Sequence record: PZ050807.1 | Origin: a phage | Length of the DNA: 45,190 bases | Reading direction: 5' to 3' (one strand) | Shown: positions 17,581-37,135 of the stretch, piece by piece | Position numbering within the stretch: the first letter of the stretch is position 1 | How the letters are laid out: each line of letters starts with the position of its first letter | The notes under the pieces: generated by a model | Database searches by the model: none | Told to the model about the DNA's origin: nothing | Seen by the model: the letters and a program-made list of their open reading frames with translations, nothing else | Program-made: the position numbers and the translations under genes

Positions 17581-17755
17581 TGCATAAAACAAACGGGACA
17601 AAAACGGGACAAACGACAAACGGGACAAAACGGGACGTCCCGCCGTCCCCCTCAGGAGTGGCGCGGGTTTGAGGCAAACGGGACAAGCGGGACAGACCAC
17701 AGTCTTTCAGACTAGACGGGGGGTATGGTCCCCCCTCCGTCTGAGACTGCATAAA
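17581..17755. repeat. Structured non-coding element A: ACGGGACA iterons, CGGGACGTCCCG palindrome and a long stem-loop; paralogue of 34104..34440
   Basis: Direct comparison with copy B: about 150 bp near-identical. Confidence 0.6.
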
Positions 17756-32619: not shown

Positions 32620-33345
32620 ATGGGTTATCAACTTCCTAACGGGTCCAGCGTCCAAATCGGGTCCGTACAGGGTGCAGGCATCGCAGTTACGGCAGCGTCG
32701 AACGCGGCGGCATCTATCAGCGACCTGACTCAAGGTTGCGTAATCACCTGCGCCGCTTCACATGGTCTGGCGGTTGGCGACGTGGTTATGTTCACGAAAT
32801 CCCCGTGGGTCCGTGCGCTTAACCAGGCTTTCATCGTGGGTAAAGTAGACACCAACGACGTGACGCTGGCGCGCTTCGACACGTCTGATACGACTAAGTA
32901 TCCGAACGGTGCGTTCCAGGCAGGCACACCGGGTGAGGTCGTGAAGATTTCGAGCTTTATCGACTTCCCGTTTATCACCAACGTTGCCGTGTCCGGTGGC
33001 GACCAGCAGACGACGACCTTCCAGCCGTTGCAGGTGAATACCGCGATCAGTCTGAACACCACGAAAAACCCGTTGGTACAGACCTATACCTTCACCCACG
33101 ACGAAGAAGACCCGATCCGTCCGATTCTGGAAGACCTGGACGACACGCAGAAGACAACGGTAATTAAGTTCACTAACCCGGCAGCGTCCAGCGGTAAAGG
33201 TGAAATCCGTATCTATGCGGCTAAGGTGTCCTTCCAGAAGATTCCGTCTGCGGAAGTAAACAACGTCGAAACGGTACAATCCACTCTGACCATGCAGTCG
33301 GAAATGATGATTTACCGCAAAGACCTTGTTGAAGCCTTATCCTGA
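32620..33345 (+). CDS. Major tail protein
   Basis: 241 aa ORF before the chaperone/tape-measure genes; terminator downstream. Confidence 0.6.
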   Translation: MGYQLPNGSSVQIGSVQGAGIAVTAASNAAASISDLTQGCVITCAASHGLAVGDVVMFTKSPWVRALNQAFIVGKVDTNDVTLARFDTSDTTKYPNGAFQAGTPGEVVKISSFIDFPFITNVAVSGGDQQTTTFQPLQVNTAISLNTTKNPLVQTYTFTHDEEDPIRPILEDLDDTQKTTVIKFTNPAASSGKGEIRIYAAKVSFQKIPSAEVNNVETVQSTLTMQSEMMIYRKDLVEALS

Positions 33346-33376: not shown

Positions 33377-33398
33377 GGGGGCGTAAGCCCCTTTTTTA
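33377..33398 (+). terminator. Intrinsic terminator/attenuator after the major tail gene
   Basis: GGGGGCG-TAA-GCCCC followed by TTTTTT. Confidence 0.6.
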
Positions 33399-33412
33399 AT
33401 GGAGAGAATATC

Positions 33413-33775
33413 ATGGCTAAACAATCCCTTTTCACCCTCGACCCAAAACCGACTTTCAAGCTGCCGATTGAAATCCCGCGTCCGGGCGAGAAAGAGCCGG
33501 GTAAGCTGACTTTCACCGTCCGCCACCGTCCGATCGACGAGTTCTCGCAGACCATGCAGGAGACTGAACGCAAGCTGTCAGAGTATGACCAGAATGACCC
33601 GGACGGCTTTAACGTTATGGTCGAGGCCATCATGCATGTGGCTGAAGGCTGGAATCTGCCGGATGAGTTCACTGAAGAGAACGTACGCCGCCTGGTGGTG
33701 AACTATCCGCGTGCGTTCGGCGTGTTCCATACGTCGTACTATCTCGAATTGATGGGCTTGCGTGAAAAAAACTAA
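33413..33775 (+). CDS. Tail assembly chaperone (lambda gpG-like)
   Basis: Position immediately upstream of the tape measure; slippery site at its 3' end. Confidence 0.6.
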   Translation: MAKQSLFTLDPKPTFKLPIEIPRPGEKEPGKLTFTVRHRPIDEFSQTMQETERKLSEYDQNDPDGFNVMVEAIMHVAEGWNLPDEFTEENVRRLVVNYPRAFGVFHTSYYLELMGLREKN

Positions 33776-34089
33776 TTGAGGCGGCGCGACGCTTCTATGG
33801 TCCGCCGCCACCGTCCGAAGACCTTGCCGCTAGTTTATGGGGTGCGGCCCCCGAAGATATTTGTCCGCCAGTTGCATTATGGCCTGATAACGTACAGGTC
33901 GTTGCCGTTTTCACTGACTGCTCAACGCAGTGGCGCACCGGTTTTAACGGAGCATACGGCATCGACTACGGCGTGCTGGAATGGCTATTTAAAATGCACG
34001 GCATCGAAAATGAGAAGCGAGCTTTTAAAGATATCAAGTTAATGGAGCGTATTGCACTCGACGAAATTGCAGCACAACAGGCCGGGTAA
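33766..34089 (+). CDS. Tail assembly chaperone extension (gpT-like), expressed as a G-T fusion by -1 programmed frameshift at A_AAA_AAC
   Basis: Heptamer A AAA AAC at 33766..33772; the -1 frame is open from 33766 to the TAA at 34087..34089. Confidence 0.5.
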   Translation, partial: KKLIEAARRFYGPPPPSEDLAASLWGAAPEDICPPVALWPDNVQVVAVFTDCSTQWRTGFNGAYGIDYGVLEWLFKMHGIENEKRAFKDIKLMERIALDEIAAQQAG

Positions 34090-34103
34090 TTCCGGCCTTT
34101 TTC
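34080..34103 (+). terminator. Intrinsic terminator after the GT chaperone ORF
   Basis: GGCCGG-GTAATT-CCGGCC followed by TTTTT. Confidence 0.6.
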
Positions 34104-34106
34104 ATA

Positions 34107-34430
34107 GCGGGACAGCGGGACGTCCCGTTTTTGTCCCGCTGTCCCGCCCCGCCAAAAACTGCATACCTATTCAGAAATACTGCATAAAACCAAAACGGGA
34201 CAAAAACGGGACAAGCAGGACGTCCCGCCTCAAAAGTGCATATCTATGCAGTTTTCATGCATAAAACGAACGGGACAAAAACGGGACAAACTGCAAGCGG
34301 GACAGAGCGGGACGTCCCGCCGTCCCTGCCAGAGCTGCCGCGGGTTTCAGCCGATCGGGACAGGCGGGACAAAGCCAAGTCTTTCAGACTAGACGGGGGT
34401 CAATGGCCCCCTCCGTCTGAGACTGAATAA
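34107..34430. repeat. Structured non-coding element B: GGGAC/GTCCC iterons, palindromes and a conserved stem-loop; paralogue of 17581..17755
   Basis: Several ACGGGACA iterons, three GGGACGTCCC palindromes, 13-bp inverted repeat GCGGGACAGCGGG/CCCGCTGTCCCGC, hairpin at 34378..34425. Confidence 0.6.
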
Positions 34431-34492
34431 GGTTGGTTGCAAAATGACTGATACAATACAAACGGCAACTTGCATAAAAAGGGGACTGCATA

Positions 34493-37135
34493 ATGGCAGA
34501 TCAAGCGGCAGGCATCACGCTAAAGGCGGATGTTGCACAAATCAGAACGGCGAATACTGTGCTTGATTCATTCGCACAGAAATCCGAGAACACAGAAAAC
34601 AAGGTTAAGAAGTTAAACAACACCCTCGGCAAATCTAAAAAGGTGACGAGTGATGCCGCTGGCGGAATGGAAAAGCTGGCGAACGAATCGCATCGAGCAG
34701 CCGATGGCATGACGAAACAGGAGCGACTCGCCAACCGGTTAGGCATGTCGACCAAAAACCTGGGCTTTGCCTCGCATAACGCCGCATTCCAGTTACAGGA
34801 TATAGCGGTTACGCTTGAGATGGGTATGCCGGTGCACCGCGTCATGCTTCAGCAGTTACCACAGCTTACTGGGGCGTTCGGTGGGTTTGGTAACACGCTG
34901 CGTTATGTTGCTGGCTTCCTCGGCCCAGTAGGGATCGGAATTGCAGCACTAACGGCAACGTTAGGCGTAGGGGTGGCAATTACGACACGTGCCGAAAACC
35001 AGGTAGCAGCGCTTAACAAGACGCTGGCGCTATCCGGTAACATTTCCGGCCTAACTGCAAACCAGATCCTGGTGCTATCCGAGAACGCCGAGCGCATGGG
35101 CGGGTCGTTCCGCAAGACGCGTGACACAATCCAGGCGCTGGCGGCGGCGGGTGTGAAAGCGGGTGCAGACTTCGGCACGCTGGCGAAAGTGGTGAATGAT
35201 TTTGCGAAGGTGTCCAGCCAGCCGATCGAGGATGTGGTCGCGGCGGTGGCGAAGCTGTCTACCGACCCGGTAGGTGGCTTGCGAGCATTGGCTGATAAGT
35301 ATCACGTCGTAAACGAAGCGCAGATCCAGCAGGTGCAGTCACTAGTGACGGCTGGTCGCGAAACCGAAGCGGTGGCGCTGGCTAACAAAACAGCCGCAGC
35401 GTCGTTTACCACTATGACCAATGAGATCAAGTCCAACATGGGTACGCTTGAGCGGTCGATGAACGTCGTTACATCGGCAGCTAAATCTATGTGGGATGCC
35501 ATCCTGGATGTTGGACGCGCGCAGTCCTCGAATGAGTCAGAGATGAAAGCGCGTGAATCATTGCAGCGACTGACCACGGCTTACTATGCCGAGATGAAAG
35601 CGGTAAACGCTGCCGGTGGGGTGATGACCGAAGCGCAGAAAGCGCGTATTAACATGCTTTACAGCGAACTGGTCGCCCAGGAGAAGGTGGTGGCGTCGCT
35701 CACCATGCGCAACCGTGCCGAGCGGGACAACGCCAGCGCCGCGGACGCAGCAGCAAAGGCGAACGAAGAGGCAAACCGCACCGCCCGCGACCGCGCTGCG
35801 TTTGAGAAGGAGTACGCAACCAACGCGAAGAGGCGCGCCGACGAGATCGCCCGCCTCAATTTGCTTAATAAGCGCGGCGTGATTGACGAGAAAGAGCTTG
35901 CCGAGGCGGTGAAGCAGGTAAACGAGCGTTACAAAGACCCCGCCCCGAAGAAGGCCGCCGCTGTTCGAGTCGATGCCGGGCTGAAAATGCTGGAAGTAGC
36001 ACGGAGCGAACTGGCACAGCTTCGTGAGTCTGGAAAGCAGATCGAAGCCAACTCCTCGACGCAGACCCGAACGCAACGCGCGCAAGCGGCCCTGAACAAG
36101 CTGATCGCGGATAATGAGCAGTTAATCGCCGCAAGCAAAGAAAGAGCACTAACGGCAGCCGAAAAGCAGCAGATGGTCGAATTCGGACGCGTGAAGGAAG
36201 TACGCGAGCAGATCGTCGAAGAAGCCAAATTGCTGGACGCGAAAGAGAAGCAGGTCAAGGCGCACGCGCAGATCGACGCCTTCGTTAAGAACCAGAACGC
36301 CGAGCTAAAAGCCACCGCGGCGGGCTATGCGCTTTCCACTCGCGAAGCGGCAAACCTGCGTGAAGAATTGCAGCTAATTGACCGCCTGAAGCGGGTGGGC
36401 GCTAGTGATGCCGATATTGATCTGGCGGTGTCTAAACTGCGCGAAGTGCAGGAAGCACAGACCGGTGCTAACGCCTCACTATGGGATGGATTCAGCCGTG
36501 GGCTTAAGGATAGCGTGGATGAAATGGGTAACGGCTATACGCAGATGGTATCGGCAACGAAATTTACATTCGGCGCTATGATGGACACGATGAATGAATT
36601 TTTCGAGACTGGTAAATTCAACGCGAAGGAAATGATTAAATCCATCCTGAGCGAATTTATCAAGCTGGCTACCTCGCAGGCGTTCAAGTCCGTAATCAAC
36701 GCATTCGGCGGTGACGGTGGGAAGAATGGTCTGTTCGGGGCAATCTTCTCCGGTCTGACGAAGAATGCCGACGGTGGAGCGTACGCTGGCGGCAACCTGT
36801 CCGCATATTCCGGTCAGATCGTAAGCCAGCCAACCTTTTTCAATTACGGCGTTAAGGCGTTCGCTAACGGCGCGGGATTGATGGGTGAGGCTGGGCCGGA
36901 GGCCATCATGCCGCTGAAGCGCGGGCCGGACGGTAAACTGGGCGTTGCCGCAAGTGGGGCTGGTGGTGGTATCGTCGTGACAACGAACGTGAACATGGGT
37001 ACAGGGCAGGCTGACACCAGCGTTAAAGGGACCGACCCGCGAATGGGGCAGGTATTCGGCAAGCAGATCACGGAAGCGGTTAAGGCCGAAATCGTGAAAG
37101 CGACTAAACCAGGTGGAGTACTTTACAAACGATGA
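34493..37135 (+). CDS. Tail tape measure protein
   Basis: 880 aa, coiled-coil rich, downstream of G/GT chaperones and upstream of tail-tip genes. Confidence 0.85.
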   Translation: MADQAAGITLKADVAQIRTANTVLDSFAQKSENTENKVKKLNNTLGKSKKVTSDAAGGMEKLANESHRAADGMTKQERLANRLGMSTKNLGFASHNAAFQLQDIAVTLEMGMPVHRVMLQQLPQLTGAFGGFGNTLRYVAGFLGPVGIGIAALTATLGVGVAITTRAENQVAALNKTLALSGNISGLTANQILVLSENAERMGGSFRKTRDTIQALAAAGVKAGADFGTLAKVVNDFAKVSSQPIEDVVAAVAKLSTDPVGGLRALADKYHVVNEAQIQQVQSLVTAGRETEAVALANKTAAASFTTMTNEIKSNMGTLERSMNVVTSAAKSMWDAILDVGRAQSSNESEMKARESLQRLTTAYYAEMKAVNAAGGVMTEAQKARINMLYSELVAQEKVVASLTMRNRAERDNASAADAAAKANEEANRTARDRAAFEKEYATNAKRRADEIARLNLLNKRGVIDEKELAEAVKQVNERYKDPAPKKAAAVRVDAGLKMLEVARSELAQLRESGKQIEANSSTQTRTQRAQAALNKLIADNEQLIAASKERALTAAEKQQMVEFGRVKEVREQIVEEAKLLDAKEKQVKAHAQIDAFVKNQNAELKATAAGYALSTREAANLREELQLIDRLKRVGASDADIDLAVSKLREVQEAQTGANASLWDGFSRGLKDSVDEMGNGYTQMVSATKFTFGAMMDTMNEFFETGKFNAKEMIKSILSEFIKLATSQAFKSVINAFGGDGGKNGLFGAIFSGLTKNADGGAYAGGNLSAYSGQIVSQPTFFNYGVKAFANGAGLMGEAGPEAIMPLKRGPDGKLGVAASGAGGGIVVTTNVNMGTGQADTSVKGTDPRMGQVFGKQITEAVKAEIVKATKPGGVLYKR

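What the first reader, a model, noticed from the sequence alone, without database searches (positions are those of the whole stretch)
33760..33780. Canonical -1 programmed frameshift site (A AAA AAC) joining the G and T tail chaperones
The gpG-like ORF ends ...CGT GAA AAA AAC TAA. The heptamer A_AAA_AAC (33766..33772) fits the X_XXY_YYZ rule. The -1 frame is closed by a TGA at 33763..33765 and opens exactly at 33766, then runs 107 codons to 34089. The six-frame track shows only a spurious ORF at 33776..34042, so the fusion product would be missed by standard gene calling.
Basis: partly seen in the sequence, partly recalled or inferred. Interest (0 to 1): 0.5.

Follow-up and report, generated by a model that had tools for sequence, protein, structure and literature searches.

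The report
Tail chaperone G/GT frameshift site
This is the well-known "slippery" spot at which a tailed phage makes a small amount of a longer tail-assembly helper protein by shifting reading frame; it is real and conserved, but ordinary, and is simply left unannotated in this phage genus.

Summary
The window is a Dhillonvirus (HK578-like E. coli siphophage) genome. Gene G (33413-33775, Pfam Phage_TAC_4) ends CGT GAA AAA AAC TAA. The -1 frame is closed by TGA 33763-65, then runs 107 codons to TAA 34087-89. It encodes a DUF1799 domain with no start codon in its first 69 codons. The pair lies between the tail tube gene and the tape measure gene.

A_AAA_AAC followed directly by a stop codon is invariant in all Dhillonviruses examined. 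It is also kept in most Drexlerviridae (T1-like) and metagenomic relatives at 30-50% protein identity. A few lineages have G_GGA_AAC or an A_AAG/A_AAA tetramer instead.

A -20 kcal/mol hairpin (33780-33809) starts 7 nt after the heptamer. Synonymous variation is lowest there, and the base of the stem covaries across clades.

The best explanation is ribosomal -1 frameshifting that yields G (120 aa) plus a minor GT fusion (225 aa), analogous to lambda G/GT.

- Tandem slippage predicts the junction ...REKN-LIEAARR. REKK-LIE would indicate transcriptional or P-site-only slippage.
- G starts at 33413, not 33359.

None of eight Dhillonvirus GenBank records annotates the fusion, but T1-like relatives do. 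This is a new member of a known kind and of low interest.

The parts
32620..33345 (+). Tail tube (major tail) protein gene, the upstream neighbour
   Evidence: Pfam Phage_tail_3, 1.4e-32
33377..33399 (+). Intrinsic-terminator-like hairpin plus T run, between the tube gene and G
   Evidence: Terminator scan. Terminators are annotated at the equivalent place in WFI, T1 and AHS24.
33413..33775 (+). Gene G: tail assembly (tape measure) chaperone, 120 aa, preceded by GGAG at 33401-04
   Evidence: Translation. Pfam Phage_TAC_4, 1.2e-24, matches residues 1-120 to profile positions 1-124. Six of the seven annotated Dhillonvirus records checked place the ATG here; only Ioannina uses 33359. Variable sites fall 11/7/84 by codon position.
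33766..33772 (+). Slippery heptamer A_AAA_AAC (X_XXY_YYZ in the G frame)
   Evidence: Read directly. Invariant in 24 distinct Dhillonvirus sequences. Present in 78 of 80 metagenomic T-homologue loci and in 7 of 11 GenBank relatives picked by protein similarity alone.
33773..33775 (+). Zero-frame stop TAA directly abutting the heptamer; possibly a second pause signal
   Evidence: The stop is kept at this position while its identity changes between TAA, TGA and TAG in relatives.
33780..33809 (+). Stem-loop 7 nt downstream of the heptamer. GGCGGCG 33780-86 pairs with CGCCGCC 33803-09, plus inner pairs.
   Evidence: -20.0 kcal/mol, z = -3.15, 0 of 200 shuffles fold as well. Top 1% of 42-nt windows in the neighbourhood. 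The outer 4 bp are paired in 90% of cells across 59 sequences, with CG/UA/GC alternation.
33766..34089 (+). T segment (-1 frame, 107 codons plus stop). It is expressed only as the C-terminal part of the 225-aa GT fusion.
   Evidence: Translation. Pfam DUF1799, 7.9e-21, and PHROG 680 and 17368. The first start codon in this frame is GTG at codon 70. Variable sites fall 24/9/72 by codon position.
34079..34103 (+). Terminator-like hairpin plus T run; the T stop codon sits in its loop
   Evidence: Terminator scan. An equivalent terminator is annotated in WFI, T1 and AHS24.
34493..37135 (+). Tape measure protein gene, the downstream neighbour and presumed client of G/GT
   Evidence: Pfam TMP_2, 1e-42, and Tape_meas_lam_C, 1.7e-11

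Best explanation
This is the programmed -1 ribosomal frameshift site of the tail assembly chaperone pair of a Dhillonvirus.

**Normal decoding.** Most ribosomes translating G (33413-33775) terminate at TAA 33773-75 and release the 120-aa chaperone.

**The shift.** A minority of ribosomes slip back one base. At that moment peptidyl-tRNA-Lys is on AAA 33767-69 and aminoacyl-tRNA-Asn is on AAC 33770-72. They re-pair on AAA 33766-68 and AAA 33769-71, and the ribosome then reads CUA AUU GAG ... to 34086. The product is a 225-aa GT fusion with the junction ...LREKN-LIEAARR...

**Likely stimulators (inferred).** Slippage is probably promoted by pausing against the GC-rich hairpin that begins 7 nt after the heptamer. 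The abutting stop codon may also contribute.

**Likely function (by analogy with lambda, not tested here).** Many G molecules and a few GT molecules coat the tape measure protein. The T domain recruits the tube protein so that the tail polymerises to the right length. Neither protein ends up in the virion.

**What is shown and what is inferred.** Shown: the anatomy, the family assignments, coding selection in both frames, and conservation of the site. Inferred: that the shift happens, its efficiency, the role of the hairpin and the stop codon, and the assembly function.
For: - **Anatomy.** The coordinates are exact. The frames overlap by only 10 nt, so the heptamer is the only possible junction.
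- **Protein families and synteny.** G is Phage_TAC_4 and T is DUF1799. They are flanked by Phage_tail_3 and TMP_2 genes. PHROG 17368 aligns G to profile positions 1-107 and T to 143-211 of a single profile, meaning fused versions are on record.
- **No independent start.** The first start codon in the T frame is at codon 70.
- **Both frames are coding.** Variable sites among 24 Dhillonvirus sequences fall on third codon positions of G (84 of 102) and of T (72 of 105). The alternative zero-frame ORF shows 4/59/19.
- **Conservation.** Heptamer plus stop is invariant in Dhillonviruses that are 82-100% identical over the G-T region. It is also present in T1, U136B, tunus, a Klebsiella Webervirus, 2005IV, SXFY507 and CS01, which share 29-41% T identity. 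It is present in 78 of 80 IMG/VR loci. Ralstonia phage YO191_3 and locus L091 have G_GGA_AAC plus stop instead.
- **Synonymous-site suppression.** Only 2 of 10 third positions vary at 33760-33786, against a typical 6-10.
- **Hairpin.**
- **Prior annotation.** U136B carries a joined 'tape measure chaperone frameshift product' at the homologous site. The Stevie genome note mentions the conserved frameshift in T1-like chaperones (PMC4319613).
- **Literature on the motif.** A_AAA_AAC gives more than 0.10% frameshifting in E. coli without stimulators and is the proven IS1 motif (PMC4066793). A low rate is what lambda G:GT of about 30:1 requires (PMC5009743).
Against: - There is no direct evidence (protein, reporter or mutant) for this phage or, as far as I found, for any Dhillonvirus.
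- A_AAA_AAC is classed as a low-efficiency heptamer in E. coli (PMC4066793; PMC5009743).
- RNAalifold finds no consensus structure over the whole family. The hairpin is weak or absent in some relatives, for example 2005IV, L044, L056 and L057. I derived the stem I tested from these same sequences, and they fall into only a few clades.
- The 78-of-80 figure is inflated by retrieval. One of the two search peptides (KKL[KI]...) overlaps the site.
- Three of five divergent relatives found without that bias lack a heptamer and have only an A_AAG or A_AAA tetramer.
Confidence: 0.88

Rival explanations
1. The shift is ribosomal but is not a tandem A/P-site slip. One version is a 'shifty stop': tRNA-Asn sits on AAC in the P site, UAA sits in the A site, and the tRNA slips back during slow termination. 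The other version is a P-site-only slip of tRNA-Lys on A_AAA before Asn-tRNA binds.
For: - A stop codon directly follows the heptamer in nearly all relatives, while its identity varies between TAA, TGA and TAG.
- Divergent relatives (AHS24, RAD2, K70PH128C1) have only an A_AAG or A_AAA tetramer near the stop. The common denominator of the family is therefore a shifty Lys codon.
- A_AA.G and A_AA.A tetramers are shift-prone in E. coli (PMC4066793).
Against: - Full X_XXY_YYZ heptamers are retained in most lineages, including the non-homopolymeric G_GGA_AAC. That retention is what two-tRNA re-pairing predicts.
- In the tetramer lineages, a sense codon separates the motif from the stop.
- The stop could be conserved simply because it fixes the C-terminus of G.
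Confidence: 0.2
2. The fusion arises from transcriptional slippage. RNA polymerase stutters on the run of seven A (33765-33771) and inserts an extra A in some transcripts. Those transcripts are then translated normally into GT, with the junction REKK-LIEAARR.
For: A 7-A run is present. AAAAAAA runs are under-represented in E. coli genes, possibly for this reason (PMC4066793).
Against: - Efficient slippage by bacterial RNA polymerase is described for runs of 9 A or T (PMC5009743).
- T1-like relatives have only six A. Ralstonia phage YO191_3, L091 and L057 have GGGAAAC, which has no long homopolymer but obeys the ribosomal X_XXY_YYZ rule.
- A conserved hairpin at a 7-nt spacing fits ribosomal pausing.
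Confidence: 0.05
3. There is no recoding. T is either translated on its own from an internal start, or it is a decaying remnant, and the heptamer is coincidental.
For: Many GenBank records annotate short T-frame ORFs that begin at internal ATG or GTG codons.
Against: - In this window, the first start codon in the T frame is GTG at codon 70 of 107, with no Shine-Dalgarno sequence. It lies inside the DUF1799 domain, which spans residues 25-101.
- The T frame shows a clear third-position substitution pattern from its first codons onward.
- The heptamer and stop are conserved across families of phages.
- Chance expectation for an in-frame heptamer at the only usable register is about 0.1%.
Confidence: 0.02

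Closest known systems
Bacteriophage lambda G/GT tail assembly chaperones (Levin, Hendrix and Casjens 1993; Xu, Hendrix and Duda 2004, 2013, 2014, as cited in PMC5009743)
   Same: - The gene pair lies between the major tail gene and the tape measure gene.
- The second ORF is in the -1 frame and has no start codon of its own.
- An X_XXY_YYZ heptamer lies near the end of G.
- The expected outcome is an abundant G and a rare GT fusion.
   Different: - There is no detectable sequence similarity (BLASTP E = 9.2), and the Pfam families differ: Phage_TAC_4/DUF1799 here, against Phage_TAC_2/Phage_tail_T in lambda.
- Lambda uses G_GGA_AAG, an efficient motif in E. coli, with five sense codons before the G stop.
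- Here the motif is the weaker A_AAA_AAC, directly abutted by the stop and followed by a strong hairpin.
Tape measure chaperone frameshift of T1-like phages (Drexlerviridae): U136B MW598258, Stevie, T1
   Same: - The protein families are homologous, with 29-41% T identity.
- The heptamer is the identical A_AAA_AAC, directly followed by TAA.
- The spacer is also 7 nt, before a GGCGG.../...CCGCC hairpin.
- Terminators bracket the gene pair.
- The site is annotated as a joined frameshift product in U136B and mentioned for Stevie.
   Different: - This is a different genus (Dhillonvirus), where none of the eight records inspected carries the annotation.
- The inner part of the hairpin differs: CG/GC pairs here, against UA pairs in T1.
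- A repeat-rich gap of about 400 nt separates T from the tape measure gene here, against about 40 nt in T1-like phages.
IS1 insA-insB' -1 frameshift at A_AAA_AAC
   Same: It uses the same heptamer in the same host (E. coli). The event is proven and of low efficiency, and it makes a fusion protein (PMC4066793).
   Different: IS1 has no established stimulator. Here a hairpin and an adjacent stop codon accompany the motif. The biology also differs: transposase dosage there, virion assembly here.

Membership tests
Tailed-phage G/GT tail assembly chaperone with programmed -1 frameshift (Xu et al. 2004 class) | Two ORFs located between the major tail (tube) gene and the tape measure gene | tested here: met
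   Phage_tail_3 at 32620-33345 and TMP_2 at 34493-37135 flank the pair.
Tailed-phage G/GT tail assembly chaperone with programmed -1 frameshift (Xu et al. 2004 class) | The second ORF is in the -1 frame, overlaps the end of the first, and lacks its own initiation site | tested here: met
   The overlap is 10 nt (33766-33775). The first start codon in the T frame is at codon 70, with no SD.
Tailed-phage G/GT tail assembly chaperone with programmed -1 frameshift (Xu et al. 2004 class) | A slippery sequence in the overlap that is conserved among relatives | tested here: met
   A_AAA_AAC is invariant in 24 distinct Dhillonvirus sequences. It, or G_GGA_AAC, or an A_AAR tetramer, is present in every relative examined.
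Tailed-phage G/GT tail assembly chaperone with programmed -1 frameshift (Xu et al. 2004 class) | Both segments evolve as protein-coding sequence | tested here: met
   Variable sites by codon position are 11/7/84 for G and 24/9/72 for T. The competing zero-frame ORF shows 4/59/19.
Tailed-phage G/GT tail assembly chaperone with programmed -1 frameshift (Xu et al. 2004 class) | G and GT are made at a fixed ratio, both are required for tail assembly, and both are absent from virions | not testable with these tools
   This needs proteomics or genetics. The lambda ratio of 30:1 is taken from PMC5009743.
Tailed-phage G/GT tail assembly chaperone with programmed -1 frameshift (Xu et al. 2004 class) | The conserved TAC fold (the 'spiral' structure of HK97-type chaperones; recalled from memory, not checked) | tested here: inconclusive
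   The AlphaFold model of G, built from a 3-sequence alignment, reached only pLDDT 58.6. Foldseek against the PDB gave nothing with E <= 0.001. A PDB sequence search gave nothing either.
Pfam Phage_TAC_4 (PF08748) plus DUF1799 (PF08809) | Score above the curated gathering threshold | tested here: met
   G scores 87.3 bits against a cutoff of 21.1. T scores 74.5 bits against a cutoff of 26.
Lambda gpG (PF06894) and gpT (PF06223) sequence families | Sequence or profile similarity to lambda G and T | tested here: not met
   Only TAC_4 and DUF1799 are hit at E <= 0.01. Lambda's proteins hit TAC_2 and Phage_tail_T. BLASTP of G against lambda G gives E = 9.2. The element works like lambda G/GT but does not belong to those families.
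Canonical -1 PRF cassette (heptamer, 5-9 nt spacer, 3' structure) | An X_XXY_YYZ heptamer in the zero frame | tested here: met
   GA A_AAA_AAC at 33766-72.
Canonical -1 PRF cassette (heptamer, 5-9 nt spacer, 3' structure) | A stable downstream structure at the appropriate spacing, supported by covariation | tested here: inconclusive
   Spacing and stability are met: a 7-nt spacer, -20 kcal/mol, z = -3.15. The outer 4 bp are 90% paired with CG/UA/GC alternation, 0 of 500 shuffles reach the observed value, and slid registers score lower. However, RNAalifold gives no consensus, the structure was derived from the same data, and some relatives lack it.
Transcriptional slippage sites | A homopolymer run long enough for RNA polymerase realignment (9 A or T described as efficient, PMC5009743) | tested here: not met
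   There are seven A here, six in T1-like relatives, and GGGAAAC in three relatives.

The most novel reading that the evidence does not exclude
In this chaperone family (Phage_TAC_4/DUF1799), the recoding signal would be a conserved three-part cassette. It consists of a weak Lys-codon slippery motif, a zero-frame stop codon placed directly in the next A site, and a hairpin exactly 7 nt downstream. On this reading the stop codon is an active stimulator, making this termination-coupled -1 frameshifting, rather than just the end of G. It would compensate for a heptamer that is poor in enterobacteria and tune the G:GT ratio.
Probability: 0.25. Interest if true: 0.4.

Novelty: new member of a known kind. 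Interest (0 to 1): 0.18.

Why it matters
Practically, this is an annotation fix. The GT fusion is missing from all eight Dhillonvirus GenBank records I inspected. In some of them it is replaced by spurious ORFs; in Ioannina, a wrong-frame ORF is labelled 'major tail protein'. A joined CDS, 33413..33772 with 33772..34089, should be added.

Biologically it adds nothing new in principle, because the conserved tail-chaperone frameshift has been known since lambda and Xu et al. 2004. The one mildly interesting point is that a heptamer regarded as inefficient in E. coli is kept across hundreds of enterobacterial phages, together with an abutting stop codon and a fixed-distance hairpin. That makes the family a convenient natural series for testing how weak slippery sites are tuned.

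Tried and rejected
- **Homologue search with the fused GT protein**. It returned only two G-only hits, which gave no information about annotated fusions.
- **RNAalifold on the 59-sequence site alignment**. It gave no consensus structure, so the stem was tested with a structure I named. The 7-bp version is only 64% paired. Only the outer 4 bp hold across clades.
- **Folding the whole 95-nt downstream stretch**. This was not significant (z = -0.59). Only the local hairpin stands out.
- **PDB sequence search**, **an AlphaFold model of G** (pLDDT 58.6) and **Foldseek against the PDB**. No usable result.
- **Rfam**. No family matches at the site. The only hits are sub-threshold miRNA-like chance matches in the repeat region.
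- **A first conservation profile**. It had an off-by-one error in coordinates. I detected this and recomputed. Only the numbers are used.
- **Explanations rejected:**
  - Sequencing error or pseudogene: the arrangement recurs in more than 100 independent genomes with changing stop codons.
  - An independent T start: see the third rival explanation.
  - The 33359 ATG as the G start: the terminator-like hairpin 33377-92 lies inside that extension. Pfam aligns from 33413, and six of the seven annotated Dhillonvirus records use 33413.

Full report
**1. The observation**

- The upstream ORF ends CGT GAA AAA AAC TAA, with the stop at 33773-75.
- The heptamer A_AAA_AAC occupies 33766-33772 in the X_XXY_YYZ register.
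- The -1 frame has TGA at 33763-65 and is open from 33766. It encodes 107 codons (KKLIEAARRFYGPPPP...AAQQAG) before TAA at 34087-89.
- The six-frame list shows only a zero-frame ORF, 33776..34042 (88 aa, TTG), over this stretch.

The two frames overlap by just 10 nt, so the heptamer sits in the only register where a -1 shift could join them. In-frame X_XXY_YYZ heptamers occupy 0.12% of codon positions in the long open stretches of the window. AAAAAAC occurs 4 times in 45 kb, against 9.5 expected. This is not a chance coincidence.

**2. What the genes are**

The window is a Dhillonvirus genome. It is 99.6-99.9% identical over this region to Dhillonvirus LM40P1 and Escherichia phage Ioannina, and about 85% identical to some 145 other records.
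- The upstream ORF, taken from ATG 33413, is a full-length match to Pfam Phage_TAC_4 (1.2e-24).
- The -1 segment matches DUF1799 (7.9e-21).
- The gene before the pair is a Phage_tail_3 tube protein, and the gene after it is a TMP_2 tape measure protein.
- PHROG 17368 aligns G to profile positions 1-107 and T to positions 143-211 of one profile. Fused versions therefore exist among annotated phage proteins.

G most likely starts at 33413, which has GGAG 8 nt upstream, and not at the 33359 ATG of the mechanical ORF list. A terminator-like hairpin at 33377-92 lies inside that extension. Six of the seven annotated Dhillonvirus records use the 120-aa form.

**3. Is the T frame really coding, and can it start by itself?**

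I compared 24 distinct Dhillonvirus G-T sequences, 82-100% identical to the window. Variable columns fall by codon position as follows:

| Region and frame | Position 1 | Position 2 | Position 3 |
|---|---|---|---|
| G, in its own frame | 11 | 7 | 84 |
| 33776-34086, in the T frame | 24 | 9 | 72 |
| 33776-34042, in the zero frame | 4 | 59 | 19 |

The T frame is therefore the coding frame. (An earlier version of this computation was off by one base. I caught the error and redid the analysis.)

The first ATG, GTG or TTG in the T frame is GTG at codon 70 (33973). It has no Shine-Dalgarno sequence and lies inside the DUF1799 domain. T therefore cannot be made on its own.

**4. Conservation of the site**

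Within Dhillonviruses, the longest invariant run in G-T is CGTGAAAAAAACT (33761-33773). Third-position variability is lowest across the site: 2 of 10 positions vary at 33760-33786, against a typical 6-10. One record has TGA in place of TAA, which is a stop-for-stop change.

Distant T homologues were picked from a tblastn search that found 1,157 phage records.
- T1, U136B, tunus, a Klebsiella Webervirus, 2005IV, SXFY507 and CS01 all end G with A_AAA_AAC TAA.
- Ralstonia phage YO191_3 has G_GGA_AAC TGA.
- Three more divergent relatives have no heptamer. AHS24 has GCA AAG GTC TAA, RAD2 has GCA AAA GTT TAA and K70PH128C1 has CAA AAG CCT TAA. Each carries a shift-prone A_AAG or A_AAA tetramer one codon before the stop.

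Among 80 IMG/VR loci retrieved with a T alignment, 78 have A_AAA_AAC directly followed by TAA, TGA or TAG, and two have G_GGA_AAC. One of the two retrieval peptides overlaps the site, so that proportion is biased upward.

That criterion is clearly not met.

**5. Stimulatory elements**

Seven nucleotides after the heptamer, GGCGGCG (33780-86) pairs with CGCCGCC (33803-09), with further inner pairs.
- The hairpin folds at -20.0 kcal/mol, z = -3.15, and 0 of 200 shuffles fold as well.
- It is in the top 1% of 42-nt windows in the surrounding 4 kb.
- T1 has GGCGGUUU/AAACCGCC at the same 7-nt spacing (-15.9 kcal/mol, z = -5.4).

On an ungapped alignment of 59 distinct sequences, the four outer pairs (window 33780-83 with 33806-09) are formed in 90% of cells. 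One pair alternates CG 24 / UA 19 / GC 10, and another alternates UA 31 / CG 10 / UG 7. No shuffle out of 500 reaches the observed covariation, and slid registers score 0.25 or less against 0.448.

This evidence is suggestive only.
- The inner part of the stem is not shared.
- RNAalifold gives no consensus.
- I derived the stem from the same sequences, and they represent few clades.
- Several relatives have no good hairpin.

The zero-frame stop abutting the heptamer is the other conserved feature. Its retention while its identity changes suggests selection. That selection could act simply to fix the C-terminus of G, or the stop could add a pause. No Rfam family matches the site.

**6. Mechanism**

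The best-supported reading is classical ribosomal -1 frameshifting. tRNA-Lys on AAA and tRNA-Asn on AAC re-pair one base upstream, and decoding continues with CUA. The result is a 225-aa GT protein alongside the 120-aa G.

The literature fits a low-rate event.
- A_AAA_AAC is a low-efficiency heptamer in E. coli. It still gives more than 0.10% frameshifting without stimulators, and it is the proven IS1 motif (PMC4066793).
- Lambda needs G:GT at about 30:1 (PMC5009743).

Tandem slippage predicts the junction REKN-LIEAARR. The junction peptide is therefore diagnostic.

Transcriptional slippage is unlikely. The run is only 7 A, relatives have 6 A or GGGAAAC, and efficient bacterial slippage is described for runs of 9.

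**7. Comparison with known systems**

Functionally and positionally this is the lambda G/GT arrangement, but it is not a member of lambda's sequence families.
- Lambda's proteins hit Phage_TAC_2 and Phage_tail_T.
- BLASTP of the two G proteins gives E = 9.2.
- Lambda's G_GGA_AAG lies five codons before the stop.

The true homologues are the 'tape measure chaperones' of T1-like phages. The same site is annotated as a joined frameshift product in U136B and is mentioned in the Stevie genome note.

In Dhillonviruses, none of eight inspected records annotates the fusion: Ioannina, Pandora71, WFI, Haito, EC115, 22664B1, B2 and Kenya-K19. A literature search found no paper describing it for this genus. 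An attempt to test the chaperone fold failed for lack of a deep alignment.

**8. Verdict**

This is a previously unannotated member of a thoroughly known kind of recoding site. Interest is low. The only modestly novel angle is the family-wide cassette of a weak Lys-rich motif, an abutting stop codon and a hairpin at a fixed 7-nt distance.

Noticed in passing
34108-34370 and 17594-17693: There are two dense clusters of the hexamer CGGGAC, in both orientations. One has 15 copies in the roughly 400-nt gap between T and the tape measure gene, and the other has 7 copies near 17.6 kb. The window holds 40 copies in all, against 24 +/- 6 expected. Both clusters share longer modules: TGCATAAAAC(A/G)AACGGGACAAAAACGGGACAA and the palindromic CGGGACGTCCCGCCGTCCC. 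They look like iterated binding sites for a DNA-binding protein. The Stevie genome note mentions unexplained, stoperator-like repeats in T1 and Stevie.
   Followed up: partly
33377-33399 and 34079-34103: Intrinsic-terminator-like hairpins with T runs bracket the G-GT unit. The T stop codon (34087-89) sits in the loop of the second hairpin. Terminators are annotated at the same two places in WFI, T1 and AHS24. This suggests attenuated transcription into the chaperone and tape measure genes.
   Followed up: partly
33776-34042 (+) and 33795-33962 (-): GenBank record OQ589852 (Ioannina, 99.6% identical) annotates the wrong-frame ORF equivalent to 33797-34042 as 'major tail protein', and an antisense ORF as a hypothetical protein. 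The substitution pattern shows the zero-frame ORF is not coding. Many records label G and T 'tail length tape measure protein', a name carried over from PHROG 569 and 680.
   Followed up: yes
L111 (AHS24), L112 (RAD2), L114 (K70PH128C1): Divergent members of the same chaperone family lack a heptamer. They have an A_AAG or A_AAA tetramer followed by one sense codon and then the stop (GCA AAG GTC TAA; GCA AAA GTT TAA; CAA AAG CCT TAA). The family therefore shows natural variation in slippery-site type at a fixed position.
   Followed up: partly
Records MG065648.1 and OQ221563.1: 'Campylobacter phage A144' and 'Acinetobacter phage NJ01' are about 84-85% identical to this E. coli Dhillonvirus across G-T. 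Their host labels look doubtful, perhaps from contaminant or mis-assigned phages.
   Followed up: no
34090-34492: The gap between T and the tape measure gene is about 400 nt in Dhillonviruses, against about 40 nt in T1-like relatives. Different records fill it with differing small hypothetical ORFs. It is probably non-coding regulatory DNA; see the CGGGAC repeats above.
   Followed up: partly
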